The notes under the pieces are model-generated. The model searched no databases and was not told the origin of the DNA. It saw only the letters and a program-made list of their open reading frames with translations. Positions 5,363 through 19,587 of a DNA stretch of 64,000 nucleotides are shown here, one piece after another (within the stretch, counting starts at the first letter, position 1; every line of letters starts with the position of its first letter). The DNA is from an uncultured Chloroflexia bacterium (GTDB taxonomy: Bacteria; Chloroflexota; Limnocylindria; QHBO01), in NCBI GenBank assembly GCA_963837425.1, contig CAWINH010000006.1:260494-324493 (forward strand), given 5' to 3'. The position numbers and the translations under genes were made by a program.

Positions 5363-5372
5363 CTGCTAGACT
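5363..5372 (+). promoter_or_regulatory. extended -10-like promoter element of the nuoA operon
   Basis: TGCTAGACT about 125 nt upstream of nuoA; the same motif recurs upstream of several genes in the window. Confidence 0.45.
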
Positions 5373-5496
5373 GTCATCGAGGCGGAAACGCCTGAGAAAC
5401 GCAACGTGAAGAAGCCGCCAGACGCGCGAGCCAGCGGCGGATGCCTCGGAGTGCGCCGCCCGCATCGGCCCGCCTGTCGAGCGCAACGGAGCTGAC

Positions 5497-5856: not shown

Positions 5857-6483
5857 AGGATCGAGAGCGGACCGGGCGCCACGTCGCCCATCGTCATTCC
5901 CGACCAGGCGGCGGGCGACGAGCTGCTCCGCGAGTTCGGGATGGAGGAGCATCCGAAGGGCGGCTTCCACGGCCTGCTCGAGGTGATCCCGACCCGCGCG
6001 GACTGGCTGCTGGACCTGATCCGGGCCAACTCCCTGTGGCCGCTCCTGTCGGGCCTGTCGTGCTGCGCCATCGAGATGATGAGCACGGCCACCGCCAAGA
6101 ACGACATCGACCGATTCGGGATGTTCCCGTTCCGCGCCAGCCCGCGGCAGGCGGACGTCCTGATCGTGGCGGGAACCCTGACGACGAAGATGGCCGGGCC
6201 GCTCGTGCGCCTGTGGGAGCAGATGCCCGAGCCGAAGTGGTGCGTGGCGATGGGCACCTGCACGACGAGCGGCGGTCGCTTCAAGCGCAGCTACAGCGTC
6301 GTCCAGGGCGTGGATCGGGTCATGCCCGTGGACGTCTACGTCCCCGGCTGCCCGCCGCGACCGGAGGGCCTGATCTACGGCCTCGTGAAGCTCCAGGAGC
6401 TCGTGAAGCAACGCCGTGGCCAGTGGCCCACCTACGTCGACCGCGGCCCGCAGCGCATCGCGTGGGAAGGAGACGTGCGCTGA
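5847..6483 (+). CDS. nuoB: NADH-quinone oxidoreductase subunit B (probable indel near 5859; called ORF 5941-6483)
   Basis: [35 protein letters not shown]; the ATG at 5847 overlapping the nuoA end is one base out of frame with the coding-like [14 protein letters not shown] stretch. Confidence 0.92.
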
Positions 6484-7055
6484 CCGCCCCCGCAGCCGCC
6501 GGGGCGCTGGTCCGCGCCCTCACCGAACGCCATCCGGAGCTCGCCGCCGGCCTGTGGACGGACCCCGACACCGTCGAGATCACGGTGCCCGGGGACCGGA
6601 ACGTCGAGCTGCTCCGCGAGCTCCGGGACGACCCGGACCTCCACTTCTGGTACCTGGCCGATGCCGCCGCCGTGGACTACGGTCCCGGCGAGCGCTTCGA
6701 GGTCGTCTACCACCTCTATTCCGATCGCCATCCGGCCTGGCTGCGCGTGCGGGCCACGGTCGACCGCGGCAGCCCGCACATCCCGACCATCACCGGTCTG
6801 TGGCCCGGCGCGATGTTCCACGAGCGCGAGATGTACGACATGATGGGGATCGTCTTCGACGGGAACCGGGACCTGCGGCGCATCTTCATGTCGCCCGACT
6901 ACCGCAGCTTCCCGCAGCGCAGGGACTTCCTGCTCCCCGATGACGCGGCCGACTCGCCGGCGGCCGGCGTGAACCCGCTCGAACGGCCGGAGACCTGGGA
7001 GCTGTCGCAGGTCACCCGCGAGCTCGGCGACGAGAGCCCAGGGGGCGCAACGTGA
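6480..7055 (+). CDS. nuoC: NADH-quinone oxidoreductase subunit C (probable CTG start)
   Basis: [36 protein letters not shown]; AAGGAG RBS and CTGA overlap with the nuoB stop. Confidence 0.9.
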
Positions 7056-8335
7056 CGACGACCGATCGCGAGACGGAGATCCGCGACCCGATCGACCTCG
7101 ACCGGGAAGAGGAGGCGCGCCTGCAGGCGGCCGCCGGCCTGGGCCCGCAACGTCCGGCATCGGTGGAGTACGCCGGCTTCGACACGGTCAGCGTCCCGGA
7201 TCGGCCGCCCCAGACCGAGCGCGAGCGAGAGCTCTTCACCCTCGACGAGGGCGAGATGCTCATGAACATGGGGCCGCAGCACCCCTCCACGCACGGCGTC
7301 ATGCGGCTGCTCCTCAAGGTCCGCGGCGAGATCGTCACCGACATCGACCCCGTGCTCGGCTACCTCCATCGCGGGATCGAAAAGCTCTGCGAGAACGCGA
7401 CCTACACGACGGTCCTTACCTACGTCGATCCCATGGACTACATGTCCTCGATGCACAACGAGCACGCCCCGGCGATCGCCTTCGAGAAGCTGTACGGGAT
7501 CCGCGCCCCGCGGCGGGCCGAGTACATCCGCGCCCTCGTCGTGGAGCTGAACCGCGTCTTCAGCCACGGCCTGATGGTGGGCTTCCTGGCCCTCGACATG
7601 GGCGGCATCACGCCGATCCTCTACGGCTTCATCAACCGCGACGAAACGGTCGAGCTGCTCGCGGCCATCAGCGGCCAGCGGATGCTCTTCAACTTCTTCC
7701 GGGTCGGCGGGGTGAACTGGGACGTCAACGACGAGTTCATCAACCGCCTCTCGCGCTGGCGCGTGAACATCGGCAAGGCGATCCGGGACAACGAGGCGCT
7801 CGTCACCCAGAACGAGATCTTCACCGCGCGGACCAGGGGGATGGGCAGGCTCTCAGCGGAGCAGGCCATTGGCCTCGGCGTCTCGGGGCCGAACCTCCGT
7901 GCGTCGGGGGTCCCGTTCGACGTGCGCAAAGCGCACCCCTACTCGATCTATTCGGAGCTCGAGTTCGAGGTCGTAACCCAGCAGGGGGGCGACGTGTACG
8001 CGCGTTACCTCCAGCGCATCGCCGAGCTCAAGCAGAGCCTGAGCCTGATCGACCAGATCGTGGATCGCATGCCGCACGGCCCGGTGCAGGCCCAGGTGCC
8101 GGGGATCATCCGACCGCGGCCGGGACGGGCGTACGCGGCGATCGAATCGCCGCGCGGCCTGTACTCCGTCTACGCCATCAGCGACGGCGGCCCGACTCCG
8201 TACCGCTTCCGGATGCGCGACCCGAGCTACGTGTCGCTGCAGGTGATGCCGGTCCTCATGCCCGGTCATCTCGTCGCCGACACGATGGCGATCATGGCCA
8301 GCCTGGACCCGATCATGGGCGGGGTGGACAAGTAG
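7052..8335 (+). CDS. nuoD: NADH-quinone oxidoreductase subunit D
   Basis: NMGPQHPSTHGVMRL, GYLHRGIEK, SGPNLRASG, ESPRG, SLDPIMGGVDK. Confidence 0.96.
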   Translation: MTTTDRETEIRDPIDLDREEEARLQAAAGLGPQRPASVEYAGFDTVSVPDRPPQTERERELFTLDEGEMLMNMGPQHPSTHGVMRLLLKVRGEIVTDIDPVLGYLHRGIEKLCENATYTTVLTYVDPMDYMSSMHNEHAPAIAFEKLYGIRAPRRAEYIRALVVELNRVFSHGLMVGFLALDMGGITPILYGFINRDETVELLAAISGQRMLFNFFRVGGVNWDVNDEFINRLSRWRVNIGKAIRDNEALVTQNEIFTARTRGMGRLSAEQAIGLGVSGPNLRASGVPFDVRKAHPYSIYSELEFEVVTQQGGDVYARYLQRIAELKQSLSLIDQIVDRMPHGPVQAQVPGIIRPRPGRAYAAIESPRGLYSVYAISDGGPTPYRFRMRDPSYVSLQVMPVLMPGHLVADTMAIMASLDPIMGGVDK

Positions 8336-9352
8336 ATGGATCTCAGCCTGCTGCTCGGGATCGGGCGCTTCATCCTGGCCACCACCCTGCTCCTGGTCCT
8401 CACCATCCCCACCGCGTTCGTCATCATCCAGATGGAGCTCAAGGTGATCGCCCTCATGCAGCTCCGCCTGGGTCCGAACCGGGTCGGCCCGCGCGGGATG
8501 TTCCAGAGCACGATCCACGGCTTCAAGGTGCTCGCCAAGGAGGACGTCACTCCCGACCAGGCCGACCGGCCGACCTTCACCATGGCTCCCTGGATCGTCT
8601 ATATGGCGGCCGCCATGAGCCTGCTCGTCATTCCGTTCGCGCCCGGGCTGGTGGCGTTCGACTCGCAGATCAGCGTCGTCTACTTCTTCGCGGTGCTGGG
8701 ACTCTCGGTGGTCGGACTGCTGGTGGCCGGCTGGGCGAGCTACAACAAGTACTCGCTCCTCGGCGGCCTGCGCAGCGCGGCGCAGATGGTGAGCTACGAG
8801 ATTCCGCTCACGCTGTCGGTGGTGGGGATCGTCATCCTCACCGGGTCCCTCTCGTTCACCGAGATCATCGCCTGGCAGGCGCAGCACGGCTGGACGGTCC
8901 TGTGGCAGATCCCGACCCTGGCCTTCCCGGTCTTCTACATCGCCGCGCTGGCCGAGATCAACCGCACCCCGTTCGACATGGTCGAGGCCGACTCCGAGAT
9001 CGTGGCCGGCTTCGCGACCGAGTACTCGGGGATGCGCTTCGGGTTCTTCTTCTTCGCCGAGTACGTCGCCCTCTTCATCATGAGCGCGGCCATGGTCACC
9101 CTCTTCTTCGGCGGGTGGCTCGCGCCGTGGCCCTTCCCCGCGCAGCTCGACGGCTTCATCGGGACGCTCTACGGCCTCGTCTGGTTCTTCGGCAAGAGCT
9201 ACTTCTTCGTGTTCGTCGCGGTCTGGCTGCGGACGACACTGCCGCGCGCCCGCGTCGACCAGCTCATGGGGCTGGCCTGGAAGGTCCTCCTGCCGCTGGC
9301 GCTCGTGAACCTGTTCATCACCGCGGGGATCGTCCTGTGGTTCAACCTGTGA
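8336..9352 (+). CDS. nuoH: NADH-quinone oxidoreductase subunit H
   Basis: QLRLGPNRVGP, GGLRSAAQMVSYE, AEINRTPFD..EADSEIVAGFATEYSG. Confidence 0.96.
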   Translation: MDLSLLLGIGRFILATTLLLVLTIPTAFVIIQMELKVIALMQLRLGPNRVGPRGMFQSTIHGFKVLAKEDVTPDQADRPTFTMAPWIVYMAAAMSLLVIPFAPGLVAFDSQISVVYFFAVLGLSVVGLLVAGWASYNKYSLLGGLRSAAQMVSYEIPLTLSVVGIVILTGSLSFTEIIAWQAQHGWTVLWQIPTLAFPVFYIAALAEINRTPFDMVEADSEIVAGFATEYSGMRFGFFFFAEYVALFIMSAAMVTLFFGGWLAPWPFPAQLDGFIGTLYGLVWFFGKSYFFVFVAVWLRTTLPRARVDQLMGLAWKVLLPLALVNLFITAGIVLWFNL

Positions 9353-9367
9353 GAGGGGCGTAGCGAG

Positions 9368-10204
9368 ATGGCAATCCCGGGCACCGGCATCGTCAAGGGG
9401 ATGACCACCACCCTGCGCAACCTGTTCGCGCCCAAGGTGACGCGCCAGTACCCCGATGAGCGGCCGCAGATGCCGGAACGCTGGCGCGGACGGCTGGACC
9501 TCATCTACGACCCGTTCGGCGAGCACAAGTGCGAGGTCTGCTTCCAGTGCGCGCAGGTCTGCCCGGTCGAGGCCATCGACATGAGCGGCTTCGACGTGCA
9601 GGGCAACCGGATCCGGTATGGCATGCCGGAGATCTACGACGAGCGCAAGGACCCGAACGCCTATCGGCGGGCCGGGCTTGCCGCGGAGCCGATGCGCAAC
9701 GCGGCGCGCTGGGAGGAGGAGGTCGACGGCGCGTGGCTCGCCGACGTCATCGAAGGCTTCGGCGCGCGACCCGAGTCGCTCGTCGCGATCTTCACCGCCA
9801 TCGAGCAGCGCTACGGTTACCTACCCGAGCGCGCGCTGCGCCAGGTGAGCGACACGATGACGATCCACTGGGCGCAGGTCTTCGGCGCCGCCGGGCTCGG
9901 CGGGTTCCGGCTGCTGCCGGCCGAGGGGCACCTCGTCACCGTCTGCACCTGCCCGGCCTGTTACTTCGCCGGCGGCGGCGAGCTTCTGGAGGCGATCAGC
10001 GAGGAGCTCGGCATCCGGCCCGGTGAGTCGACGTCGGACGGCGCGTTCAGCCTCGAGACCTCCGAGGAGGTCGGGGCCGGGGCGCTGGCGCCCGCGATCC
10101 GCATCGACACGCTCGTCTACGGCCCGCTCGACGCCGAGCGGGCGCTCCACCTCATCTCCGAGCGTCGCCGCGCCCGTCGGCGCGCCGCGACGGCGGCGAG
10201 CTGA
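9368..10204 (+). CDS. fusion of NuoI N-terminal half and a degenerate NuoE/HydC-like domain
   Basis: Residues 1-72 are NuoI-like (GMTTTLRNLF.PKVTRQYP, RWRGR, one CEVCFQCAQVCP); the C-terminal part is NuoE-like (YGYLP, VCTCPAC, GESTSDGAFSLE, ALAPAI). Confidence 0.88.
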   Translation: MAIPGTGIVKGMTTTLRNLFAPKVTRQYPDERPQMPERWRGRLDLIYDPFGEHKCEVCFQCAQVCPVEAIDMSGFDVQGNRIRYGMPEIYDERKDPNAYRRAGLAAEPMRNAARWEEEVDGAWLADVIEGFGARPESLVAIFTAIEQRYGYLPERALRQVSDTMTIHWAQVFGAAGLGGFRLLPAEGHLVTVCTCPACYFAGGGELLEAISEELGIRPGESTSDGAFSLETSEEVGAGALAPAIRIDTLVYGPLDAERALHLISERRRARRRAATAAS

Positions 10205-10208
10205 GGCG

Positions 10209-11576
10209 ATGACCACCGGCGGCGGGCTCTCCCCGCAGATCCACATCCTCCCCGGAGGCGAGCAGCGGCTGCTCGCCGACATCGGGCGCGTCGACCCCGA
10301 CAGCCTCGCCTCGTATCGGGAGCATGGCGGTTACGGAGGGCTGGCCCGCGCCGTCGAGCAGCTAGGGGCCGCGTCGGTCGTCACCGAGATCGGCGACGCC
10401 GGCCTGCGCGGGCGCGGCGGTGGCGGCTATCCGACCGCCGAGAAGTGGCGGGCGGCCCGCGCCGCAGAGGGCGACCGCAAGGTCGTGGTCGCCAACCTGA
10501 TGGGCGCCGATCCGACCGCCCTCGGCGATCGAGCGCTCGCCGAGGGAAATCCCCACCTCGTCCTCGAGGGCGTCCTCATCGCGGCCTTCGCGACCGGCGC
10601 CTCGGAGGCGATCATCGCCGTGCGCCGCGACTGGGAGCTCGCGATCAAGCGACTCCGCCAGGCCGCCGCCGAGGCGGAGGCCGCGAACCTCGCCGGCTAC
10701 CTGGTGCTGGGCACCGACTTCTCCTGCGCGGTCTCGGTCTGGGAGGGATCCGGCGCGCTCGTCGCCGGGGAGGAGACGGCGCTCCTGGCCGCGTTGGCCG
10801 GGGACCGCGGGATGCCGACGATCCGACCGCCGTATCCGACCGAGCGCGGCCTGCTCGGCGCGCCGACGACGGTGCACAACGCCGAGACGCTGGCCCACGC
10901 CGCCTGGATCCTGGGACACTCCGTCGAGGCCTTCGCCTCCGCCGGCGCGCACCACAGCGCCGGGACGCGGCTCGTCACGATTTACGGCAAGGTCGCCGAG
11001 CCCGGCCTGGTCGAGGTTCCGCTGGGGACGCCGATCCACCGCCTCATCGAGCTGGCCGGCGGCCCGACCGGCGAGACGAAGGCGGTCTTCGTGGGCGGCC
11101 CCGGTGGCGGCGCCCTCGGCGCGAACGAGCTCGAGATCGAGTACGACTACGAGCCGCTGCGTGCCGCGGGCGCCGGCCTCGGGATGGGGACGGTCCTCGT
11201 CACCGATGCCGACACCTGCATGGTCGACACGGCGCGATTCTTCCTCGACTGGTCGGCACGCGAGGCGTGTGGCAAGGCGGTCCCCTGCCGGATCGGCACC
11301 CGCCGCCTCGTCGAGGCCCTCGATCGCATCCTGGCCGCCACGCCGCGGCCGGGCGACTTCGACCTGCTGCGCGACCTGTCGCGGAAGATGGCCGACACCG
11401 CGCTCTGTCACCTCGAGGCAAGGGCGCCAGGACCGATGCTCTCGACCCTCGCCCGCTTCGGCGATGAGTACCGCGCCCATGCAGAGCGCGGTGAATGCCT
11501 GTCCGGCTCGTGCGAGGTGCCCCGCGTCTCGCCACTCATCGCGGTGCACACCGGCATCGGCCAATCGGGATCCTGA
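10209..11576 (+). CDS. nuoF: NuoF/HydB-like flavoprotein subunit with divergent motifs
   Basis: GLRGRGGGGYPTAEKW, GEETALL, RPPYP, HNAETL, DTCMVD, EACGKAVPCRIG, HAERGECLSGSC. Confidence 0.85.
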   Translation: MTTGGGLSPQIHILPGGEQRLLADIGRVDPDSLASYREHGGYGGLARAVEQLGAASVVTEIGDAGLRGRGGGGYPTAEKWRAARAAEGDRKVVVANLMGADPTALGDRALAEGNPHLVLEGVLIAAFATGASEAIIAVRRDWELAIKRLRQAAAEAEAANLAGYLVLGTDFSCAVSVWEGSGALVAGEETALLAALAGDRGMPTIRPPYPTERGLLGAPTTVHNAETLAHAAWILGHSVEAFASAGAHHSAGTRLVTIYGKVAEPGLVEVPLGTPIHRLIELAGGPTGETKAVFVGGPGGGALGANELEIEYDYEPLRAAGAGLGMGTVLVTDADTCMVDTARFFLDWSAREACGKAVPCRIGTRRLVEALDRILAATPRPGDFDLLRDLSRKMADTALCHLEARAPGPMLSTLARFGDEYRAHAERGECLSGSCEVPRVSPLIAVHTGIGQSGS

Positions 11577-11598: not shown

Positions 11599-13993
11599 AT
11601 GAGCTTCGTCACCAGCGGCAACGGACACGGCAACGGCAACGGCGCCGGCAAGCCACTGCGTCCGGATGACTACGCGCCGATGTGGCCCATGGTGCCCGGG
11701 ACCCGGAAGATCAGCGTCACGATCAACGGCGAGCAGGTGGAGGCCGAGGAAGGGCAGACGATCCTCCAGGCCTGCCGCGTGCTGGGGCTCGAGATCCCGA
11801 CGCTCTGCTACGAGCCGAAGCTCGCCGCCTTCGGTGCCTGCCGGATCTGCGTCGTCGAGGTCGAGGGGCGCGACGACACTCCCATCAGCTGCGGGACCCA
11901 GATCGCGGATGGGATGGTCATCACCACCCACTCCCAGCGGCTCATCGAGAACCGCCGCATGGTCCTCGAGCTCATCTTCAGCGACCACGACGCGTACTGC
12001 CTGCCGCCCTGCCAGTTCAAGTGCCCGACCCGGGTCGACATTCCCGGCTACCTGAAGCAGAACACGCTCGGCAACTGGGAGGAGGCGACGCGCATCCTCA
12101 AGCGCTCGCTCCCGTTCCCCGCCATCCTGGGCCGCGTCTGCCCGGCGCCCTGCGAGACCCACTGCCGTCGCGAGGAGGTGGACACCGCCATCTCGATCCG
12201 TGACTCGCACCGCTACTGCGCGGACCGCGTCCTCGAGGTCGACGCCCCGGCTCCCATCCCGTGGCCGAAGGAGGCGGACACCGGGCGGCGGGTGGCGGTC
12301 ATCGGCGCCGGCGCGGCCGGCATGGCGGCGGCCTACTACCTCCAGCTGCGGGGCCACCACTGCGACGTGCTCGAGGCGGAGCCCGAGCAGGGCGGCATGC
12401 TGCGCTACGGGATCCCCGAGTACCGCCTCCCGAAGGGCTGGATGGATCGCGAGCTCGACCACGTCTGGGAGCTGGGCGCGACGTTCAAGCCGAACATGCG
12501 CCTGGGGCGCGACTACCACCTCGCGGACCTGCTCGAGCAGGGCTACGACGCCGTCTACGTCAGCATCGGCTGCTACCGATCGAACGAGCTCGGCATCCCC
12601 GGCGAGGACGGCGACGGCGTGGTGAACGCGCTCGAGAACCTCTACAACTCGACCCGCGGCCTCCCGATCCCGGCGCTGAAGGACGCGCGGGTCGTCGTCA
12701 TCGGCGGCGGCTTCACCGCCATCGACTGCACGCGCACCAGCGTCCGGCAGGGTGCCGGCGAGGTGACCCTCGTCTACCGCCGCGACCTGAAGGACATGCC
12801 GGCCCAGGACGAGGTCCACGAGGCGATCGAGGAGGGCGCGCGGGTCATCTTCCAGGCCGCCCCGACCCGGATCATCACCGACCGGCGCAACAAGGTGACC
12901 GGCGTCGAGTTCCAGCACATGCGCCTCGGCGAGCCGGACGAGAAGGGCCGCCGCCGCCCCGAGCCGATGCCAGGCACCGAGTTCGTCGTCGAGTGCGACA
13001 CCGTACTGGGCGCCATCGGCCAGGGACCGGACCTTTCCTGGGTCGATTCCGAGCCCGAGGAGATCCGCTCCCAACTGGAGGTCACCCGCCGCGGCACCCT
13101 CGTCGCCGAGGAGGACATCTTCCGCACCGGCGTGCCCCGCGTCTTTGCCTCGGGCGACGTGCGGACCGGGGCCACGACCGTGGTCGAGGCGATCGGCGAG
13201 GCCCGTCGCGCGAGCTACGCGATCGACTACTGGCTGCGCGGCCACGACCTCGACGACCCCCAGGTGCGGCGCATCGTGTCCGAGCCGCAGCCGAACTTCC
13301 TGACGATCGTGCCCTTCACCGACGACGTGAAGGAACCGCGCGCGGTCATGGGCAAGAAGGGCGCCGAGGAACGCAAGGGCAGCTTCGCCGAGTACGAGTT
13401 CGGGTTCACCGGGGACCAGGCCATGGCCGAGGCGGGCCGCTGCCTGCAGTGCACCTGCGAGGCGATCGGCCACTGCGACCTCCGCGAGGCGGCGATCGAG
13501 TACGAGACGACGCTGAACATGGCGATCGACGAGCGCTCGATCCAGGACAACCCGTACGTCGGCGTCAACCACGGCTACGGCCGCGACGAGACGCACAGCT
13601 TCATCCTCCGCGACTACTCACGGTGCATCGACTGTGGCCGATGCGCCCAGGTCTGCAAGGACATCGTGGGCGCCGGCTGCTACGACTTCATCGGCAAGGG
13701 CTTCGACTCGCTCGTCACGACCGCGGATTTCGTCGTCGCTGAACGAGACGCCGTGCGTCTCCTGCGGACGCTGCGCGGAGACCTGTCCGGTGGGGGCGTT
13801 GATGCCGCGCCCGCGCACGCTCGAGACCTACCAGCTCGACGTGTCGCGCTGCATCTTCTGCGGCATCTGCGCCGATGCCTGCCCGTACGACGCCCTGCGC
13901 TGCGGCCCCGAGTTCGAGTTCAGCGAGTACCAGCGCGACCTGCCCATGCTCGACATCCTCGAGATGTCCGACCGGGAGCGCCCGACCCGCTGA
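11599..13993 (+). CDS. NuoG-N / GltD-like FAD-NADP(H) oxidoreductase / ferredoxin / NuoI C-terminal half fusion (1-nt frameshift at ~13735)
   Basis: [2Fe-2S] IPTLCY..GACRICVVE..ISC; CLPPCQFKCP, GRVCPAPCETHC; GAGAAG; GGGFTA..VYRR; CIDCGRCAQVC; in the shifted frame CVSCGRCAETCPVGAL and YQLDVSRCIFCGICADACPYDAL. Confidence 0.87.
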
Positions 13994-14508: not shown

Positions 14509-15783
14509 TTACAAGGGAGCGGGTGGAAGCAGGATCACGCCCTGGTAGCTGTCGGTTCCGACCTCACGCTGGCCGATGCCCACCAGCCGATCGTCGGCGA
14601 CGGCCAGCCGCTGCATCGTGATGTCGGGGTCAACCTGCGGACGGCCGATGACCTGCCACGTTCCGTCCGGGTGCCAGCGCACCAGGACGAGCTGCGTATC
14701 TCCGACGTCGGGACGGAACCAGCGGTAGACGCCAAGCACGCCGTCGTCGCGAGCGTAGAGGTCGACGAACTCGCCACAGCAGCCCTGCGCGAAGGCGAGC
14801 GACCACGACGATCCGTCCGCGGAGGTCCAGGCCGCGGGCCGCCGGAGGTTGCCGTTCGCATAGTCGACCTGGATGGAACCGCCCGCCAGGAGCTGGCCGT
14901 CGACCACGACCGCACGGGAGATGCCCGCGCCCGCGAGCGCCGGCGCCGTCGGCAGCAGATCCCACGCGAGGCCGTCGGCGGAAGACCACGCCAGCCCCTG
15001 CGACGGATCGTGCCCGGCGAGGCCAACCGCGATCCATCCGTCACCGAAGCGGACGAGGTCGAGCATCGCGGACTCCGGCGGTGCGGTCACCGCTGTTGAC
15101 TCGGTCCAGGTGACTTCGTCGTTCGAGGTCCAGGCCATCGCCCCGTTGAGGTAGTCGAGCCCCGAGTGGGAGCCGATGGCCATGATGCCAGGCCCGCCCT
15201 CGGCGACGTCCAGCTGGAATGCGCCGGAGACCGCCGCCAGCTGGCGCCAGGCCGTGCCATCGGCCGATGCCCAGACCACCGATCCGTAGCCCTCGCTGTA
15301 GCGAGCTCCCCATCCGCCGAGCGCCAGGTACCCGCCACCGGCCAGGGCCAGGACCCGGCTCAGGCCCTTCGCATCGTCGGCGCCGATGGCCGGCACGCTG
15401 GTCACCGCCATCCACGTTTCAGCGTCGCGGCTCGTCCAGATCGCGCCGTTCCAGCCGTCTGCCCCCACCGCCAGGAGGCCCCCACCCGGCATCGCCACGA
15501 CGTCCGAAATGGTCCCGGTGGTCGACACGGTAACCGCGCGCCAAGGCCCGGGGATCAGCGGGGGCGTCTCGGCGAACGCCGGCGAGGCGGAGGCGTTCGG
15601 TGGCGGGGTGGCGACCGGCGTCGGCGACGGCGGCGCGCTCGCGGGGAGCGTCGCGCTGGCTCCGGGCGTGGGCGAAGCGACCGTGGCGGCCGACTCGCTC
15701 ACCGAGGCTCCGGGGCTCGCGCAGGACGCGGCGAGAAGCGAGGCCATCGACAGGCCTGCCAATCGCGCCAACCAGCTCCGCAT
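14509..15783 (-). CDS. secreted lipoprotein with Asp-box/BNR repeats (probable beta-propeller)
   Basis: Lipobox-like LLAAS-C, Pro/Ser/Thr linker, five W-x-S-x-D-x-x-x-W repeats (WTSRDAETW, WASADGTAW, WTSNDEVTW, WSSADGLAW, WTSADGSSW). Confidence 0.7.
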   Translation of the reverse strand: MRSWLARLAGLSMASLLAASCASPGASVSESAATVASPTPGASATLPASAPPSPTPVATPPPNASASPAFAETPPLIPGPWRAVTVSTTGTISDVVAMPGGGLLAVGADGWNGAIWTSRDAETWMAVTSVPAIGADDAKGLSRVLALAGGGYLALGGWGARYSEGYGSVVWASADGTAWRQLAAVSGAFQLDVAEGGPGIMAIGSHSGLDYLNGAMAWTSNDEVTWTESTAVTAPPESAMLDLVRFGDGWIAVGLAGHDPSQGLAWSSADGLAWDLLPTAPALAGAGISRAVVVDGQLLAGGSIQVDYANGNLRRPAAWTSADGSSWSLAFAQGCCGEFVDLYARDDGVLGVYRWFRPDVGDTQLVLVRWHPDGTWQVIGRPQVDPDITMQRLAVADDRLVGIGQREVGTDSYQGVILLPPAPL

Positions 15784-15966
15784 CGGTCGAAATCCCTCCC
15801 AGACTGGACGCAGCATGAGGACGTCCAGCTCCCTCAGCGGTGTCACATCTTGGCCGCGGCCCCCGATGCTGACAAGAGCGCATCCGCCCGTCGTTCGTGC
15901 TCCGTCCATGCGCGGTTGACAGGTCCCGGTGCCGCGGGACCTCAGCCGGGCCGGTACGGTGCGTGC

Positions 15967-16401
15967 TCAGCGCGTCGCGAGCCGGGCGCCGGCGCGGCCG
16001 ATCAGCCAGGCCAGCCCGACGCCGATCGCACAGCCGAGCGTGTTCACCCACACGTCGTCGATGTCCGCCATCCGGCCCGCGATGAACCGCCACTGCACGA
16101 GCTCGATGAGGATCGAGAGCGTCAGCCCGGCGCCGATCGTCGTCCACGGACCGACGCGCGGCAGGGCCGCACGGGCCAGCAGGCCGAGCGGCATCAGGAG
16201 GAGGAGGTTGCCGACCAGCTGGCCGATGGCGAAGGCCGTGCCGGCGTAGCGGAACGTGTACCGGATCCCCGCCAGCGGGACGAGATTCGGCGCCAGCGGC
16301 CCCTGCGAGGTGGGCGTCAGGGTCAGCACCAGCACGACCGCGAGGTAGGCCGCCAGCACGAGGCGGGTGAGGAGGAGGAGACCGCGGGCCATGAGTGCCA
16401 T
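15967..16401 (-). CDS. VanZ-family membrane protein
   Basis: NLVPL, GNLLLLMPLG, IELVQ..GRMADIDDVWVNTLG. Confidence 0.85.
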   Translation of the reverse strand: MALMARGLLLLTRLVLAAYLAVVLVLTLTPTSQGPLAPNLVPLAGIRYTFRYAGTAFAIGQLVGNLLLLMPLGLLARAALPRVGPWTTIGAGLTLSILIELVQWRFIAGRMADIDDVWVNTLGCAIGVGLAWLIGRAGARLATR

Positions 16402-16534: not shown

Positions 16535-17044
16535 CTGGACATCTCCGGCGTTCTCTTCGTGGTGCTCGCCATCGGTGTCATTGGTGGCGGGCTGGCCGTG
16601 GTCACCCTGCGCAACGTCATCCACTCGGCCATCGCGATGATGGTCTGCTTCGGGTCGCTGGCCGGGATGTATGCGCTGCTCGGCGCACCGATCATCGCCG
16701 CCGCCCAGGTGCTCATCTACCTCGGCGCCATCAGCGTCCTCATCCTGTTCGCGATCATGCTGACCCAGGCAGGGGACGCGAACCTGCCGGCCCCGTTCCA
16801 CCGCCAGGGCCCGATTGCGGTCGTCGTGGCCGTCGTGCTCGTGGCCCTCGTCGGCTGGGCAGCGCTGGCGACCGACTGGGGAGCCGGCGCGTCTGTCGTC
16901 GCCATCGGCCTCCAGAAGGTTGCCGAGGCGATCTTCACCGACTACGCGCTGCCCTTCGAGATCATCAGCCTCCTGCTGCTGGCGGCGATCATCGGCGCCA
17001 TCTACCTTGCGCGCCGCCCCGAAGAGGACGAGAGGGCCAACTGA
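16535..17044 (+). CDS. nuoJ: NADH-quinone oxidoreductase subunit J (probable CTG start)
   Basis: RNVIHSAI, QVLIYLGAISVLILFAIML, YALPFEIISLLLLAAIIGA; AGGAG at 16522 then CTG-GAC-ATC. Confidence 0.93.
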   Translation: MDISGVLFVVLAIGVIGGGLAVVTLRNVIHSAIAMMVCFGSLAGMYALLGAPIIAAAQVLIYLGAISVLILFAIMLTQAGDANLPAPFHRQGPIAVVVAVVLVALVGWAALATDWGAGASVVAIGLQKVAEAIFTDYALPFEIISLLLLAAIIGAIYLARRPEEDERAN

Positions 17045-17349
17045 TGGGCCTGCCCGGCTACCTCGTCGTCTCCACCCTCCTGTTCGGGATCGGCGCCTTT
17101 GGCTTCATGGCGCGGCGCAACGCGATCCTCATGCTGATCAGCATCGAGCTGATGCTGAACTCGGTGAACCTCTCGCTCGTCGCCTTCAACGCGTACCTGC
17201 CGAGCGGCTCGAACGCCGGCGCGATCTTCGCGTTGATGGTGATGGCCGTGGCCGCAGCCGAGGCCACCGTGGGGCTGGCCCTGGTGATCGCCATCATCCG
17301 CACCCGGCAGACCGCGGAAGTCGACTCCTACTCGGACCTCAAGGAGTAG
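17044..17349 (+). CDS. nuoK: NADH-quinone oxidoreductase subunit K
   Basis: RRNAILMLISIELMLNSVNL, VAAAEATVGLA. Confidence 0.95.
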   Translation: MGLPGYLVVSTLLFGIGAFGFMARRNAILMLISIELMLNSVNLSLVAFNAYLPSGSNAGAIFALMVMAVAAAEATVGLALVIAIIRTRQTAEVDSYSDLKE

Positions 17350-17361
17350 GGGCCGGCGCCG

Positions 17362-19587
17362 ATGGACCTGCTGATCACCCTGATCCCGGCACTGCCGCTG
17401 GCGGGCTTCCTGTTCGCCGTGCTGGCCGGCTCCCGGCTCGACCGCATCCCCGCCCACGGCCACGCGGATCACGGCGAGCACGGGGACGACCACGCGGGCC
17501 ACACCGGCCATGGGGCGGAGGATGCGCACGGGCCCGACGCGCACGCGCCCGTCGATGAGAGCGCGTTCCACACGGTCCCGTCCGAGGAGGAGCAGGCCGC
17601 CACCAGCCCGCACGCCGGCCACGCCGACGACCTCGCGAACAGCAACGGCGCCGACGGCGTGATCCCCGCCGACCTGAACGACGGGATCGGGCAGGCCGGG
17701 CACGTCGTCGAGGGTGGACCGCAGCCGCGCTACCGCTCGTGGATCGTGCCGGTGACGCTCGTGGCGGCCACCTGGGTCATCAGCATGGTCGTCTTCGTCA
17801 ACGTCGTCTTCGGCGGCCACACATACCACGTGACGCTCTACGAGTGGATCGCCGCTGGCGATTTCCACGTGAACATCGCGTTCGCGGTGGACTCCCTGAC
17901 CGCGATGCTGCTGCTCGTGGTCAGCACGGTCGGCCTGCTGGTCCACGTGTACTCGATCGGCTACATGAACGGCGACCGCGGGTTCTGGCGCTTCTTCGCC
18001 TACCTGAACCTGTTCATGTTCAGCATGCTGCTCCTGATCCTGGGCGACAACTTCCTGATGCTCTACGTCGGCTGGGAGGCGGTCGGCCTGTGCAGCTACG
18101 CGCTCATCGGCTTCTGGTACAAGAAGCCCTCGGCGGCGGGCGCGGCGAAGAAGGCGTTCATCGTCAACCGCATTGGCGACCTCGGATTCGGCCTCGGCAT
18201 CATCGCCATCTGGGTGAGCCTGGGGACGCTCCAGTTCGACGAGGTCTTCGCGAAGATCGGAACCCTGGACCCGGGCCTGATCACGCTGATCGCGCTCCTC
18301 CTCTTCGCCGGGGCGGTCGGCAAGAGCGCCCAGTTCCCGCTCCACGTCTGGCTCCCCGACGCGATGGAGGGCCCCACTCCGGTGAGCGCCCTGATCCACG
18401 CCGCGACCATGGTGAACGCCGGTGTCTACATGGTCGCCCGCGCGAACCCGATCTTCGCGGCGAGCCCCACCGCGATGTGGGTCGTCGCGTCGATCGGGGT
18501 CTTCACCGCACTGCTCGCGGCGGCGATTGCCCTCACCCAGAACGACATCAAGAAGGTCCTCGCCTACTCGACGGTGAGCCAGCTGGCCTACATGTTCCTG
18601 GCGCTCGGGATCGGGGCCTGGGTGGCGGCGATCTTCCACCTCGTGGCCCACGGCTTCTTCAAGGGGCTGCTCTTCATGGGCTCGGGCTCGGTGATCCACG
18701 GCGCGAGCGGCGAGCAGGACATGCGCTTCCTGGGCGGCCTCCGGGACCGGATGAAATGGACGTACCGGACGATGGTCGTCGGCTCGCTGGCGCTGGCCGG
18801 GATCCCGATCTTCGCCGGGTTCTTCTCGAAGGACGAGATCATCGGCGAGGCGTTCAACCGGGGCTATTACCTCTTCTACGTCATCGGCGTGCTCGTGGCC
18901 TTCATGACCGCGTTCTACACGTTCCGCATGATCTACATGACCTTCCACGGGTCCTGGCGAGGGCCGCGGGAAGCGTGGCGCCACGTCCATGAATCGGCCC
19001 CGACCATGGTCTGGCCGCTCGTCATCCTCGCCATCCCCACGACCCTCGCCGGCCTCTTCCTGGGGATCCCGCCGGAGGGCGGGATCGTTCACTCCTGGAT
19101 GGAGGATGTGTTCGGGGCGACCGAGTCGGCGGGGGTGCTGGCCGGCTCCATCGCGTCCGGCGCGGAGCACGGCTTCGCGCTGTTCGGCCTCGGCGGGCTG
19201 TTGCTGCTCATCGGCGCCTCGGTGGGGACCGCCGGGATCTGGCTCGCGCACAGCTGGTACGTCCGCGACCCGGAGGCGCCGAAGCGGTTCGTGGAGCGCA
19301 TCCCGTTCGGGCTGGGACCGGGGATGTACGCCGCCAGCCTGAACAAGTACTACTTCGACGACATCTACGGGCTCGTCTTCGCGCGCGGCGGAGTGCTGCT
19401 CGGCAACCTGCTGTGGTGGTTTGACGCGAAGGTCATCGACGGGGCGGTGAACGGCGCCGGCTGGCTCGCGCAGCGAGGCGGCGGGCTGCTGCGCAGGGCG
19501 CAGACCGGCCGGGTCGAGAACTACGGGCTGGGGATGGCCGCCGGCCTCGTGCTCGTCCTCGTCGCGTACCTCGTGGTCCTGCGCTGA
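17362..19587 (+). CDS. nuoL: NADH-quinone oxidoreductase subunit L with His/Asp-rich insertion
   Basis: VHVYSIGYM, GWEAVGLCSY, KSAQFPLHVWLPDAMEGPTPVSALIHAATMV, FFSKDEI. Confidence 0.96.
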   Translation: MDLLITLIPALPLAGFLFAVLAGSRLDRIPAHGHADHGEHGDDHAGHTGHGAEDAHGPDAHAPVDESAFHTVPSEEEQAATSPHAGHADDLANSNGADGVIPADLNDGIGQAGHVVEGGPQPRYRSWIVPVTLVAATWVISMVVFVNVVFGGHTYHVTLYEWIAAGDFHVNIAFAVDSLTAMLLLVVSTVGLLVHVYSIGYMNGDRGFWRFFAYLNLFMFSMLLLILGDNFLMLYVGWEAVGLCSYALIGFWYKKPSAAGAAKKAFIVNRIGDLGFGLGIIAIWVSLGTLQFDEVFAKIGTLDPGLITLIALLLFAGAVGKSAQFPLHVWLPDAMEGPTPVSALIHAATMVNAGVYMVARANPIFAASPTAMWVVASIGVFTALLAAAIALTQNDIKKVLAYSTVSQLAYMFLALGIGAWVAAIFHLVAHGFFKGLLFMGSGSVIHGASGEQDMRFLGGLRDRMKWTYRTMVVGSLALAGIPIFAGFFSKDEIIGEAFNRGYYLFYVIGVLVAFMTAFYTFRMIYMTFHGSWRGPREAWRHVHESAPTMVWPLVILAIPTTLAGLFLGIPPEGGIVHSWMEDVFGATESAGVLAGSIASGAEHGFALFGLGGLLLLIGASVGTAGIWLAHSWYVRDPEAPKRFVERIPFGLGPGMYAASLNKYYFDDIYGLVFARGGVLLGNLLWWFDAKVIDGAVNGAGWLAQRGGGLLRRAQTGRVENYGLGMAAGLVLVLVAYLVVLR

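What the first reader, a model, noticed from the sequence alone, without database searches (positions are those of the whole stretch)
11599..13993. NuoG replaced by a GltD-like FAD/NADP(H) domain: candidate NADPH:quinone proton-pumping complex I
Seen: a NuoG-type [2Fe-2S] N-terminus is followed by a complete GltD-like module with Cys clusters CLPPCQFKCP and CPAPCETHC, the FAD motif GAGAAG, and a second dinucleotide motif GGGFTA followed by VYRR. It resumes with RCLQCTCEAIGHCDL and two ferredoxin motifs. The molybdopterin-enzyme-like C-domain of NuoG is absent. The flavin module seems to interrupt the N5-type His/Cys motif (SDHDAYC ... C..C.....C). Established: GxGxxA followed by an RR pair marks NADP(H) preference in GltD/NfnB/SfrB-like proteins, and similar NuoG-N+GltD subunits partner HydB/HydC homologues in NfnABC-type enzymes. 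Inference: electrons enter from NADPH via FAD and the Fe-S chain to N6a/N6b, N2 and quinone. In reverse, the proton motive force could drive NADP+ reduction.
Basis: partly seen in the sequence, partly recalled or inferred. Interest (0 to 1): 0.85.

Follow-up and report, generated by a model that had tools for sequence, protein, structure and literature searches.

The report
Complex I with split NuoI, NADPH module
This gene encodes the NADPH-binding subunit of an unusual respiratory complex I in which a transhydrogenase-derived flavoprotein module sits inside a split nuoI gene, which suggests a proton pump fed by NADPH as well as, or instead of, NADH.

Summary
ORF 11599-13993 has a NuoG-type [2Fe-2S] N-terminus, a complete GltD-like FAD/NADPH module and Fe-S motifs, and no molybdopterin-like domain. 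The frameshift is one extra base at 13734-13738. All 4 public contigs crossing the site lack it, so it is probably an assembly error.

The protein is not a modified NuoG. It is a cut-down NfnA/StnC subunit, as in the NfnABC/Stn transhydrogenases. Its C-terminus is the C-terminal half of NuoI.

- The N-terminal half of NuoI is fused to the NuoE-like gene (9368-10204).
- A NuoF-like gene lies between the two.
- The genome has no other nuoI.

The gene order is nuoA-B-C-D-H-[I(N)::E']-F'-[G'-GltD::I(C)]-J-K-L-M-N. It is conserved across class Limnocylindria. Divergent, scattered versions occur in other Chloroflexota families beside a canonical complex I.

The NuoE'/F' parts lack the bifurcation-specific domains and the N1a ligands.

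Most likely function: a non-bifurcating NAD(P)H:quinone complex I. The dead-end cluster branch of NfnA becomes the exit into NuoI, N2 and quinone.

Seven literature searches found no description. This scan had noted the same design in at least eight other genomes.

The parts
5497..5856 (+). nuoA
   Evidence: Pfam Oxidored_q4, E 1.5e-30
5941..6483 (+). nuoB (N2 cluster subunit)
   Evidence: NCBIfam nuoB_fam, 222 bits against a cut-off of 142.7. The [15 protein letters not shown] and GCPP Cys motifs are present.
6480..7055 (+). nuoC (start uncertain)
   Evidence: Pfam Complex1_30kDa, E 1.6e-36, on the C-terminal part of ORF 5847-7055. The N-terminal part of that ORF reads as out-of-frame overlap with nuoB.
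7052..8335 (+). nuoD
   Evidence: Pfam Complex1_49kDa, E 2.2e-83. GPQHPSTHG and MDYMS motifs are present and there are no NiFe Cys pairs (the significance of these motifs is recalled, not tested).
8336..9352 (+). nuoH
   Evidence: Pfam NADHdh, E 1.3e-108
9368..10204 (+). Fusion gene: NuoI N-terminal half (residues ~8-83, motif CEVCFQCAQVCP at 9530-9565), a conserved linker, and a NuoE-like domain (residues ~127-265) that lacks the second Cys pair of N1a
   Evidence: NCBIfam TIGR01971 NuoI positions 1-72 of 121 match residues 11-83 (E 2.9e-15). NuoE and HoxE models match residues 127-265. PDB hits are HydC/StnA/NfnC for 117-274 and NuoI/TYKY for 6-84. Alignments.
10209..11576 (+). NuoF-like (BfuB-core) FMN subunit. 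It lacks the N- and C-terminal accessory domains. The N3/B1 motif is CGKAVPC (second Cys replaced by Ala) at 11268-11288.
   Evidence: Pfam Complex1_51K, SLBB and NADH_4Fe-4S. Best PDB hits are 9bov_B (E 4e-117) and 8oh5_B (E 6e-115), aligned to chain residues 106-525 of 584. Complex I NuoF hits are E 1e-74 or weaker. Motifs.
11599..13993 (+). Focal gene: an NfnA/StnC-type subunit. It holds a [2Fe-2S] domain, a GltD-like FAD/NADPH module, the RCLQCTC cluster motif and a two-cluster ferredoxin-like domain, fused to the NuoI C-terminal half. A 1-base frameshift artefact breaks the reading frame in the window.
11704..11934 (+). [2Fe-2S] domain (N1b / A1 equivalent)
   Evidence: Pfam Fer2_4, residues 36-112
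12001..13203 (+). GltD/NfnL-like insertion: Fer4_20 clusters, FAD motif GAGAAG, NADPH motif GGGFTA...VYRR
   Evidence: Pfam Fer4_20 at 135-213 and Pyr_redox_2 at 231-535. Gly235/237, GGG368-370 and Y392-R393-R394 (P0004 numbering) are invariant in 92 sequences.
13734..13738 (+). One extra base, with equivalent placements in GTCGTCG, that shifts the frame. Probable assembly error.
   Evidence: Intact relatives. 64 of 66 relative loci are in frame. 4 of 4 crossing contigs lack one base here.
13621..13789 (+). Ferredoxin-like two-cluster domain: motifs CIDCGRCAQVC and CVSCGRCAETCP, the A2/A4 equivalents of NfnA
   Evidence: Aligns to 9bov_A and 8oh5_C through these motifs. AF2 pLDDT is 81-87 here.
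13826..13993 (+). NuoI C-terminal half (CIFCGICADACP ... GPEFEFS)
   Evidence: TIGR01971 positions 71-112 of 121 match P0004 residues 738-779 (E 3.3e-15). The genome search finds only this and the N-half as best NuoI matches.
14509..16401 (-). Two minus-strand ORFs (466 aa and 144 aa) that interrupt the operon. They are not part of the system.
   Evidence: The 466-aa ORF has no Pfam family. The gap between the focal gene and nuoJ varies from 132 to 7557 bp in 51 relatives and is short in 14 of 14 f2/f3 loci.
16559..17044 (+). nuoJ
   Evidence: NCBIfam NuoJ models, E 8.6e-37, below the curated cut-off
17047..17349 (+). nuoK
   Evidence: Pfam Oxidored_q2, E 2e-24
17362..19587 (+). nuoL
   Evidence: Pfam Proton_antipo_M and Proton_antipo_N
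19587..21110 (+). nuoM
   Evidence: Pfam Proton_antipo_M
21122..22594 (+). nuoN
   Evidence: Pfam Proton_antipo_M

Best explanation
What it is. The ORF encodes the largest subunit of a non-canonical electron-input module of respiratory complex I. The module is a three-gene relative of the soluble NfnABC/StnABC (Nfn-Bfu) transhydrogenases, with a NuoE-like, a NuoF-like and an NfnA/StnC-like subunit. It lies inside the nuoI gene of an operon with the 11-subunit gene order.

How NuoI is made (inferred). The N-terminal half of NuoI (first 4Fe-4S motif) is fused to the NuoE-like protein. The C-terminal half (second motif) replaces the Fdh-like domain of the NfnA-like protein. The two-cluster NuoI fold (N6a/N6b) would therefore be assembled from two polypeptides.

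How it most likely works (inferred by homology):
- NADPH reduces FAD in the GltD-like domain.
- Electrons pass through the two GltD clusters (A7, A6) and the His/Cys cluster (A3) to A2.
- NADH may reduce FMN on the NuoF-like subunit and reach A2 through B1 and the [2Fe-2S] A1.
- From A2 electrons take the branch that is a dead end in NfnA (A4). Here that branch continues into the split NuoI, then N2 in NuoB, then quinone, and drives proton pumping by NuoH and NuoJ-N.

The module has lost the parts that Bfu enzymes need for bifurcation, so it should be a plain NAD(P)H:quinone oxidoreductase.

The frameshift in the window is an assembly error, not biology.
For: Identity of the module. All three inserted genes have their best solved relatives in the same complexes:
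- Focal protein: 9bov_A E 8e-173, 8oh5_C E 4e-153, 9n5u_A E 3e-142.
- NuoF-like: 9bov_B E 4e-117 and 8oh5_B E 6e-115, against E 1e-74 or weaker for complex I NuoF.
- NuoE-like: HydC, 9bov_C, 8oh5_A and 9n5u_C at E 1e-23 to 5e-20.
- The AF2 model (mean pLDDT 81.5) matches 9bov_A, 8oh5_C and 9n5u_A with TMq 0.73-0.76.

Split NuoI:
- TIGR01971 positions 1-72 match the NuoE-like ORF and positions 71-112 match the C-terminus of the focal protein.
- In the whole genome these two are the best NuoI matches. The next is a 116-aa frame at 33.6 bits.
- A canonical NuoI from the same phylum aligns to the same two pieces.
- Complex prediction of the two halves gives weak support: score 0.34, best of 3 controls 0.00. 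The mark was reached by 58 of 80 solved complexes and 2 of 110 mismatched pairs, but at 0.60 or under by only 7 of those 80 and by both mismatches that passed. Runs agree in at least 70% of contacts and partner pLDDT is 50-51. NuoI is solved in many structures, so the pass may only reflect likeness.

Conservation:
- 62 of 65 close-relative loci with enough upstream flank show the fusion as one frame and the order H, I(N)::E', F', focal.
- 14 of 14 loci from two further families of the class are fully collinear, A to N.
- 115 of 120 listed homologues carry the NuoI-C half.

Q-module: the N2 Cys motifs in NuoB and the conserved His and Tyr motifs in NuoD are present.

Cluster path: in Csac NfnABC the path is FAD-A7-A6-A3-A2-A1-B1-FMN. 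A4 and A5 form a dead-end branch off A2, and that branch is functional in FdsABG (PMC11829005, passages). The StnC description agrees (PMC10482914, section 8).

No bifurcation apparatus:
- The NuoF-like protein aligns only to residues 106-525 of the 584-residue StnB.
- The NuoE-like domain lacks the second N1a Cys pair in 29 of 29 sequences.

Artefact: 4 of 4 crossing contigs lack the extra base.
Against: - No biochemical data exist for any member. Substrate use, flavin content and assembly are all inferred.
- The coordinates of the AF2 model were not available to me, so cluster-to-cluster distances were not measured. The mapping of motifs to A1-A7 rests on sequence alignment only.
- The NuoI-C half is modelled with pLDDT below 50 and the complex test passed only weakly.
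- The CVSCGRCAETCP motif also aligns to NuoI motif 1 in BLAST, so another pairing of the four Cys motifs is not strictly excluded.
- The NuoF-like subunit has a diverged flavin/nucleotide motif (NLMGAD or NGYxAD instead of NADE(S/G)). In family f1 the second Cys of the N3/B1 motif is missing in 15 of 15 sequences. NADH input may therefore be impaired.
- The genome also has PntB and an NDH-2-like gene, so complex I need not handle either nucleotide.
- Markers of both menaquinone pathways were not found: MenD was below cut-off and MqnA/D had no hit. The quinone is unknown.
Confidence: 0.7

Rival explanations
1. NADPH-only complex I. The NuoE-like and NuoF-like proteins are scaffolds left over from the ancestral transhydrogenase. 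Only the GltD-domain FAD feeds the chain. This is essentially the first reader's reading.
For: - N1a ligands are lost in 29 of 29 NuoE-like domains, and the thioredoxin-like half is truncated in 5 of them. It is also truncated in all 9 variants outside f1-f3.
- The second Cys of the N3/B1 motif is replaced by Ala in 15 of 15 f1 sequences and by Thr or Ser in 12 of 14 f2/f3 sequences.
- The flavin-site motif NADE is diverged.
- NuoE'/NuoF' are the least conserved subunits between families: 36-48% identity, against 56-59% for the focal protein and 81-86% for NuoB.
- Genomes of families f24 and f28 keep a canonical 14-gene NADH complex I beside the variant, which suggests a different job.
- An NDH-2-like gene exists in this genome.
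Against: - The other three Cys of the N3/B1 motif, the GRGGxG(F/Y)P FMN motif and GEET are conserved in nearly all 29 class members.
- The full CGKCxPC motif is kept in all 9 variants outside f1-f3.
- Scaffolds would not be expected to keep cofactor ligands.
Confidence: 0.2
2. An electron-bifurcating or confurcating 'Nuo-Bfu' enzyme that couples NAD(P)H and ferredoxin oxidation to quinone reduction, as predicted for Geobacter-type Nuo-Bfu.
For: - The closest solved relatives are bifurcating enzymes.
- Schut et al. 2022 predicted complex I forms with BfuABC modules (PMC9304861, passages).
Against: - The NuoF-like subunit lacks the N-terminal domain and the C-terminal two-cluster ferredoxin domain. 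These hold B2-B5, which the paper says are found in all true bifurcating homologues (PMC9304861, passages).
- The C1 [2Fe-2S] ligands of the BfuC-like part are missing. C1 is part of the proposed B1-FMN-C1 bifurcation site (PMC11829005, passages).
Confidence: 0.05
3. The enzyme mainly runs in reverse. Proton motive force drives electrons from quinol to NADP+ (and NAD+), supplying NADPH for biosynthesis.
For: - Complex I is reversible in principle (established knowledge, recalled).
- The module derives from a reversible transhydrogenase (PMC10482914, passages).
Against: - The genome has heme-copper oxidases, which suggests an aerobic respiratory lifestyle.
- PntB is already available for pmf-driven NADPH formation.
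- No lithotrophic context was examined.
- Nothing in the sequence tells direction.
Confidence: 0.1
4. The gene is a pseudogene in this organism, with a real frameshift, and the complex is defunct.
For: The window sequence carries the +1 base.
Against: - 4 of 4 crossing contigs from 3 runs lack the base, including two near-identical ones.
- Downstream codons in the shifted frame are perfectly conserved relative to intact relatives.
- This is the only complete complex I in the genome. The only other PF00346 locus belongs to a small NuoL/NuoH/NuoCD-like cluster.
Confidence: 0.03

Closest known systems
NfnABC / StnABC (Nfn-Bfu) electron-bifurcating transhydrogenases: C. saccharolyticus 9BOV, S. 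ovata 8OH5, T. sibiricus 9N5U
   Same: - Three homologous subunits in the same gene order (C-like, B-like, A-like).
- The A subunit has the same layout: [2Fe-2S] domain, GltD/NfnL-like FAD/NADPH insertion, His/Cys cluster and a two-cluster ferredoxin-like domain.
- 38-41% identity over about 700 residues.
   Different: - No Fdh-like C-terminal domain and no A5 cluster. The NuoI-C half is in their place.
- The B-like subunit lacks the accessory domains that hold B2-B5.
- The C-like subunit lacks the C1 cluster and carries the NuoI-N half.
- It is encoded inside a nuo operon and is presumably membrane-attached and non-bifurcating.
Canonical 14-subunit complex I (NuoA-N; T. thermophilus Nqo1-14, E. 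coli)
   Same: - Homologues of NuoA, B, C, D, H, J, K, L, M and N, with N2 and quinone-site motifs.
- An FMN subunit, a NuoE-like piece and a [2Fe-2S]-containing large subunit.
- NuoI sequence is present.
   Different: - The input genes lie after nuoH and inside nuoI, not between nuoD and nuoH.
- NuoI is split over two polypeptides.
- A GltD-like NADPH/FAD domain occupies the position of the N5 motif.
- There is no molybdopterin-like domain and no N1a ligands.
- By inference, the input module joins NuoI through the A2-A4 branch rather than through the His-ligated N5.
Predicted 'Nuo-Bfu' complex I (Schut et al. 2022, PMC9304861; Geobacter, Deferribacteres, Planctomycetes, Nitrospirae)
   Same: A complex I whose NADH module is replaced by a Bfu-type ABC module. 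It is predicted from gene clusters only.
   Different: - In Nuo-Bfu the module sits in the usual E-F-G position of a 14-gene operon.
- It keeps the full bifurcating BfuBC core.
- It has no GltD/NADPH domain and no split NuoI (passages).
- Their BfuB set required a ferredoxin-type domain that the protein here lacks.
- Their supplementary clade tables could not be seen.
GltD / NfnB (NfnL) / DPD N-terminal module
   Same: Two-cluster Fer4_20 domain plus FAD and NADPH Rossmann domains with the GGG...YRR motif. E 4e-90 to 1e-69 against NfnB and GltD structures.
   Different: It is an internal insertion, not a free subunit. The first 28 profile positions of Fer4_20 are missing at its N-terminal edge, and an RCLQC motif follows the flavin domains instead.

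Membership tests
NuoG (TIGR01973 / PRK07860) | Whole-protein score over the curated cut-off | tested here: not met
   TIGR01973 scores 96.2 bits against a cut-off of 470.05. Only residues 39-133 match.
NuoG (TIGR01973 / PRK07860) | N-terminal [2Fe-2S] domain (N1b) | tested here: met
   Fer2_4 at residues 36-112, E 1.3e-20. The four Cys are invariant or nearly so.
NuoG (TIGR01973 / PRK07860) | Contiguous HxxxCxxCxxxxxC N5 motif | tested here: not met
   PF10588 matches only its first 17 of 40 positions. The motif reads HxxxCxxxCxxxCP and is followed by the GltD module.
NuoG (TIGR01973 / PRK07860) | Molybdopterin-enzyme-like C-terminal domain | tested here: not met
   Intact relatives end at about residue 796. 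PF00384 has 0 matches in the genome.
NfnA / StnC (BfuA of Nfn-Bfu) | [2Fe-2S] N-terminal domain, GltD/NfnL-like insertion and two-cluster ferredoxin-like domain, collinear with solved members | tested here: met
   One alignment covers residues 35-760 against 9bov_A 2-699 (E 8e-173) and 8oh5_C 3-700. Foldseek TMq is 0.75-0.76.
NfnA / StnC (BfuA of Nfn-Bfu) | Fdh/NuoG-like C-terminal domain with the A5 (C1) cluster. In StnC, deleting the FdhF domain that holds C1 and C2 prevented purification of an active complex. | tested here: not met
   The protein is 796 aa, against 953-1178 aa for the solved members. The nearest non-family representatives are 1000-1270 aa. PMC10482914, section 8.
NfnA / StnC (BfuA of Nfn-Bfu) | Partner BfuB with B2-B5 sites and partner BfuC with the C1 [2Fe-2S] cluster | tested here: not met
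   The NuoF-like protein covers only chain residues 106-525 of 584. The C1/N1a second Cys pair is absent in 29 of 29 sequences.
NfnA / StnC (BfuA of Nfn-Bfu) | NADPH oxidation at FAD | not testable with these tools
   Only the motifs are conserved: GxGxxG, and GGG with YRR invariant in 92 sequences.
NuoI (TIGR01971) | Both CxxCxxCxxxCP motifs and the N-terminal segment in one polypeptide, scoring over the cut-off | tested here: not met
   Each half scores 55.8-55.9 bits against a cut-off of 113.05. Positions 1-72 lie on one protein and 71-112 on the other.
NuoI (TIGR01971) | The two halves together cover the family profile, and no other copy exists in the genome | tested here: met
   The genome is 94.7% complete, so absence of another copy is not proven.
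NuoI (TIGR01971) | The halves associate into one two-cluster domain | tested here: inconclusive
   Complex prediction gives weak support: 0.34 against a best control of 0.00.
Respiratory complex I (nuo operon) | Q-module and P-module subunits A, B, C, D, H, J, K, L, M and N encoded together | tested here: met
   Collinear in 14 of 14 f2/f3 loci.
Nuo-Bfu (Schut et al. 2022) | A full BfuABC module, whose BfuB carries a ferredoxin-type domain, in the nuoE-F-G position | tested here: not met
   The module lies between nuoH and nuoJ, inside nuoI. The BfuB-like protein has no ferredoxin-type domain. Definition taken from PMC9304861 passages.
GltD (TIGR01317 / TIGR01318) | Whole-protein score over the curated cut-off as a free small subunit | tested here: not met
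   337.5 bits against 482.95, and 226.2 bits against 447.7. The domain is present only as an insertion.

The most novel reading that the evidence does not exclude
Chloroflexota evolved a second, independent way to attach a nucleotide-oxidising head to the 11-subunit complex I core. A soluble Nfn/Stn-type transhydrogenase operon was spliced into nuoI, so that its former dead-end Fe-S branch became the wire into N6a/N6b. The result is a two-flavin (FAD and FMN) proton pump. It can use NADPH, the more reducing pool in vivo, to drive quinone reduction. It could also equilibrate NADH, NADPH and quinol at the membrane. In Limnocylindria it is the only complex I.
Probability: 0.35. Interest if true: 0.9.

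Novelty: new variant of a known kind. Interest (0 to 1): 0.8.

Why it matters
- Complex I is among the best-studied enzymes in bioenergetics. Its N-module and its single-polypeptide NuoI are treated as invariant wiring.
- Here a core Fe-S subunit is encoded as two halves on two proteins, and the electron-input head comes from a transhydrogenase lineage with an NADPH site.
- If it is confirmed biochemically, it would be a proton-pumping NADPH:quinone (or dual NADH/NADPH) oxidoreductase.
- It would also show that the head of complex I was acquired more than once, and it would give a natural experiment on how Fe-S wires can be re-plugged.
- By the potentials quoted in PMC9304861 (NADPH about -380 mV, NADH about -280 mV, menaquinone -74 mV), NADPH would give a larger driving force with a low-potential quinone.
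- The carriers appear in soil and sediment metagenomes and are uncultured, so their respiratory chain is otherwise unknown.

Tried and rejected
Only scores and secondary structure are returned, and no coordinate file appeared in /data. Not done.
- A first survey with the I(N)::E' fusion protein suggested the design was confined to three families of the class. This was a sensitivity limit. A second survey with a divergent focal homologue, followed by locus fetches, found it in f4, f9, f19, f24 and f28.
- 'NuoB missing' from ORF 5847-7055. Rejected: nuoB is the overlapping ORF 5941-6483.
- Reading motif CVSCGRCAETCP plus CIFCGICADACP as a complete NuoI within the focal protein. Rejected as less parsimonious. 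CIDCGRCAQVC and CVSCGRCAETCP align as the A2/A4 pair of NfnA/StnC. The other reading would leave the NuoI-N motif and the CIDCGRCAQVC motif without partners.
- Quinone type. MenD was found only below cut-off and MqnA/D gave no match. No conclusion.
- RNA evidence. A soil metatranscriptome run holds contigs 88-99% like the stretch. Contigs in an RNA library do not prove transcription of this organism's gene, so this is not used as evidence.
- Literature. Seven searches and passages of six papers gave no description of a split NuoI or of an Nfn-type module in complex I. PMC4758237 mentions a gltD-related flavoprotein replacing NuoI in mbx-like operons of Thermotoga, which is a different arrangement.
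- A phylogeny with GltD, SfrB, NfnA and DsrL, and a NuoD/NuoF tree to test independent acquisition, were not built.


Full report
**Observation.** The window has about 70% G+C. It carries a plus-strand nuo cluster:
- nuoA 5497-5856
- nuoB 5941-6483
- nuoC, ending at 7055
- nuoD 7052-8335
- nuoH 8336-9352
- a 278-aa ORF at 9368-10204
- a NuoF-like gene at 10209-11576
- the focal ORF from 11599
- two minus-strand ORFs
- nuoJ 16559-17044, nuoK, nuoL, nuoM and nuoN, ending at 22594

Pfam finds Fer2_4 (36-112), Fer4_20 (135-213, starting at profile position 29), Pyr_redox_2 (231-535) and only the first 17 positions of the NuoG N5 motif model. No molybdopterin domain exists in the protein. PF00384 has 0 matches anywhere in the 2.93-Mb, 94.7%-complete genome.

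**The frameshift.** Frame 1 turns to nonsense after ...TTADFVV. Frame 2 continues SLNETPCVSCGRC... to a stop at 13993. Intact homologues of 794-811 aa and 84-91% identity read straight through. In 64 of 66 relative loci that hold both parts, the parts are in one frame. All 4 contigs that cross 13734-13738 in three public runs lack one base there. Two of them differ from the window by only 2 other letters over 172 and 164 bases. One run may be the source sample, and contig depths are low. Even so, I read the indel as an assembly error. Several long-read-style MAG loci among the relatives show many such frame breaks.

**What the protein is.** The best solved relatives are:

| Chain | E-value | Query residues aligned |
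|---|---|---|
| NfnA of C. saccharolyticus NfnABC (9bov_A) | 8e-173 | 35-760 |
| StnC of S. ovata (8oh5_C) | 4e-153 | 36-761 |
| NfnA of T. sibiricus (9n5u_A) | 3e-142 | 36-736 |

Free GltD, NfnB and DPD proteins match only the inserted module. Complex I NuoG matches only about residues 35-137. An AlphaFold2 model of the intact homologue P0004, built with a 92-sequence alignment, has mean pLDDT 81.5. It is confident from about residue 30 to 735 and below 50 for 738-796. Foldseek ranks 9bov_A, 8oh5_C and 9n5u_A first, with TMq 0.73-0.76. In a library of 50%-identity representatives, the nearest proteins outside the own family are 1000-1270-aa StnC-like proteins at 37-45% identity. The focal protein is therefore an NfnA/StnC-type subunit that has lost the Fdh-like C-terminal domain.

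- NCBIfam places the last part of the focal protein (P0004 residues 738-779, CIFCGICADACP...GPEFEF) on NuoI model TIGR01971 positions 71-112 of 121.
- The first part of the 278-aa ORF (residues 11-83, with CEVCFQCAQVCP) falls on positions 1-72. The rest of that ORF (127-265) is NuoE/HoxE-like.
- In a whole-genome search these two pieces are the best NuoI matches, at 57.5 and 48.5 bits. No intact nuoI was found.
- PDB searches agree: residues 6-84 match NuoI/TYKY chains and residues 117-274 match HydC, StnA and NfnC.
- A canonical NuoI from another Chloroflexota genome aligns with its N-terminal 63 residues to the fusion ORF, and with its second motif and C-terminal tail to the focal protein.

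There are four Cys4 motifs in all. The pairing that leaves none without a partner is CIDCGRCAQVC with CVSCGRCAETCP (the A2/A4 pair of NfnA) and NuoI-N with NuoI-C (N6a/N6b).

A complex prediction was run on focal residues 655-796 with residues 1-110 of the fusion ORF and four 4Fe-4S clusters. It gave weak support:
- score 0.34, best of 3 controls 0.00;
- the mark was reached by 58 of 80 solved complexes and 2 of 110 mismatched pairs;
- at 0.60 or under, it was reached by only 7 of those 80 and by both mismatches that passed;
- runs agree in at least 70% of contacts, and partner pLDDT is 50-51.

NuoI is solved many times, so the pass may only reflect likeness.

**The partners.**
- The NuoF-like protein matches NfnB and StnB (E 4e-117 and 6e-115) far better than any complex I NuoF (E 1e-74 or weaker). 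It aligns only to residues 106-525 of the 584-residue chains, so the N- and C-terminal accessory domains are absent.
- Within the class the FMN motif GRGGxG(F/Y)P, GEET and three Cys of the N3/B1 cluster are kept. The second Cys of CGKCxPC is Ala in 15 of 15 f1 sequences and Thr or Ser in 12 of 14 f2/f3 sequences. The NADE(S/G) motif reads NLMGAD or NGYxAD.
- The NuoE-like domain lacks the second Cys pair of the N1a/C1 cluster in all 29 sequences and is truncated in 5.
- These are the parts that Bfu enzymes use for bifurcation (PMC9304861 passages; PMC11829005 passages).

**Conservation and spread.**
- Eighty loci of species-level relatives, mostly labelled Candidatus Limnocylindria or Chloroflexota MAGs, were fetched.
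- 65 of them have enough upstream DNA. In 62 of these the fusion is one frame and the order is nuoH, I(N)::E', F', focal. In 51 loci nuoJ follows after 132-7557 bp.
- In 14 of 14 loci from two further families of the class, the whole operon A-B-C-D-H-[I(N)::E']-F'-[G'GltD::I(C)]-J-K-L-M-N is collinear. The two minus-strand ORFs in the window are therefore a local insertion.
- 115 of 120 listed homologues carry the NuoI-C half. The other five are truncated or frameshifted.

A phylum sample of 401 genomes was searched with a divergent homologue (P0151, 43% identical to P0004). 73 of 93 listed matches, in 72 genomes, run through the NuoI-C motif. They include families outside the first three: f4 2/2, f9 5/5, f24 26/28, f28 10/11 and f19 1/2. 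Fetched loci show three layouts:

| Families | Layout of the variant genes |
|---|---|
| f19 | collinear operon |
| f4 | B-D-[I(N)::E']-F'-[G'::I(C)] at one locus, A-C-H-J-K-L-M-N at another |
| f24, f28 | B-[I(N)::E']-F'-[G'::I(C)] alone, a separate A-C-D-H locus, a separate J-K-L-M-N locus, and a canonical 14-gene nuoA-N operon |
| f9 | B-[I(N)::E']-F'-[G'::I(C)] alone; no other locus was fetched |

That the scattered loci build one enzyme is my inference. The tallies include six unpublished genomes, only as members of the sample.

**Mechanism.** In Csac NfnABC electrons go FAD-A7-A6-A3-A2-A1-B1-FMN. A4 and A5 hang off A2 as a dead-end branch, and that branch is the working wire to the pterin site in FdsABG (PMC11829005, passages). 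StnC is described the same way, with C1 and C2 as a non-functional remnant (PMC10482914, section 8).

In the protein here the sequence that follows the A4 motif is not A5 plus an Fdh-like domain. It is the NuoI C-half, 22 residues downstream. I therefore infer the following:
- The former dead end is the exit: A2, A4, N6a/N6b (split NuoI), N2 (NuoB, Cys motifs present), then quinone.
- NADPH enters at FAD. The GxGxxG motif and GGG...YRR are invariant in 92 sequences, and StnC binds NADPH at the homologous site.
- NADH may enter at FMN through B1 and A1.

In canonical complex I, NuoI is reached through the His-ligated N5 (recalled knowledge). That position carries the GltD insertion here, so the head must sit on the Q-module in a different way.

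What is shown: domain content, homology, the split and its conservation. What is inferred: cofactor occupancy, substrate use, cluster distances, assembly and direction.

**Context in this genome.** Only one complete complex I is encoded. The other PF00346 locus belongs to a small NuoL/NuoH/NuoCD-like cluster. PntB, an NDH-2-like gene and several heme-copper oxidases are present. The menaquinone pathway markers tested were not found.

**Comparison with what is in print.**
- The closest described idea is the predicted Nuo-Bfu complex I of Geobacter and others. There a full bifurcating BfuABC module sits in the E-F-G position (PMC9304861, passages). It has no GltD domain and no split NuoI. The paper's supplementary clade lists could not be opened.
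- Degli Esposti 2015 mentions a gltD-related flavoprotein substituting NuoI in mbx-like operons (PMC4758237, passage).
- Moparthi and Hagerhall 2011 describe 11-subunit complexes in Chloroflexi without any split (PMC3144371, passages).
- Seven full-text searches found no description of this design.

**Earlier notes of this scan.** After I had reached this reading, a look-up showed at least eight earlier notes on other genomes that describe the same split nuoI with an Nfn/Stn-type module. One of them places it in actinobacteria, which I did not test. New in this report:
- the evidence that this window's frameshift is an artefact;
- the scattered and coexisting layouts outside the class;
- the cluster-ligand changes in NuoF' and NuoE';
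- the mapping of the exit path onto NfnA's dead-end branch.

**Verdict.** I class this as a new variant of a known kind (complex I) with an unprecedented split core subunit, and I score interest 0.8.

Noticed in passing
window 14509-15909 (-) and 15967-16401 (-): Two minus-strand ORFs sit between the focal gene and nuoJ. One is a 466-aa protein with a signal-like N-terminus and repeated W-T/S-S-x-D-G motifs and no Pfam family. The other is a 144-aa hydrophobic ORF that was not scanned. The gap at this spot varies from 132 to 7557 bp among relatives.
   Followed up: partly
window 17362-17850 (nuoL N-terminus): NuoL carries an insertion of about 100 residues, rich in His, Asp and Gly (HGHADHGEHGDDHAGHTGHG...), after its first helix. 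tblastn hits in other families start only at about residue 112-160, so the insertion is lineage-specific.
   Followed up: no
window 22598-24100 (+): A GT20 (trehalose-6-phosphate synthase-like) gene follows nuoN directly. The same neighbour is seen after nuoN in many close-relative loci.
   Followed up: no
G000:C6:767224-772248 (outside the window): A second, small complex-I/hydrogenase-like cluster: a NuoL-like 661-aa ORF, a 311-aa ORF and a 551-aa ORF that holds the second PF00346 (NuoD-type) match of the genome.
   Followed up: partly
G000:C2:416777, C6:195025, C5:158278, C20:24283; G000:C2:600790: The genome holds four more Fer4_20 (GltD-type) loci. Three of them start at profile position 25-29, like the focal protein. 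It also holds a second NuoF-type (PF01512) locus in a 713-aa frame. These may be further Nfn- or Bfu-like enzymes.
   Followed up: no
whole genome G000: MenD was found only far below its cut-off (54.9 bits against 244.2). MqnA/MqnD (PF02621) was not found at all. The respiratory quinone of this organism is therefore unclear.
   Followed up: partly
L145 (G111:C1:1295000-1314900), 4927-6132 (-): In family f24 the stand-alone B-[I(N)::E']-F'-[G'::I(C)] cluster lies next to a divergently oriented isocitrate/isopropylmalate dehydrogenase-family gene. A 121-aa ORF without a Pfam family precedes nuoB.
   Followed up: no
L128 (G325:C33) and L129 (G317:C37): In family f4 of the same class the membrane-arm locus reads nuoA-C-H-J-K-L-M-N without B, D or I. 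These genes lie with the Nfn-type module on another contig (L149, L150).
   Followed up: partly
L153 (G233:C1:904000-923900), 5950-10802 (-): This f24 genome has two tandem copies of the G'GltD::I(C) gene downstream of one B-[I(N)::E']-F' set. G030 also shows two adjacent matches.
   Followed up: no
L022, L035, L063, L073, L076, L085, L094, L098: Many relatives' loci from one series of MAGs show several nuo genes broken into two or more tblastn pieces. This looks like frequent indel errors in those assemblies. P0043 also ends in what looks like a shifted frame.
   Followed up: no
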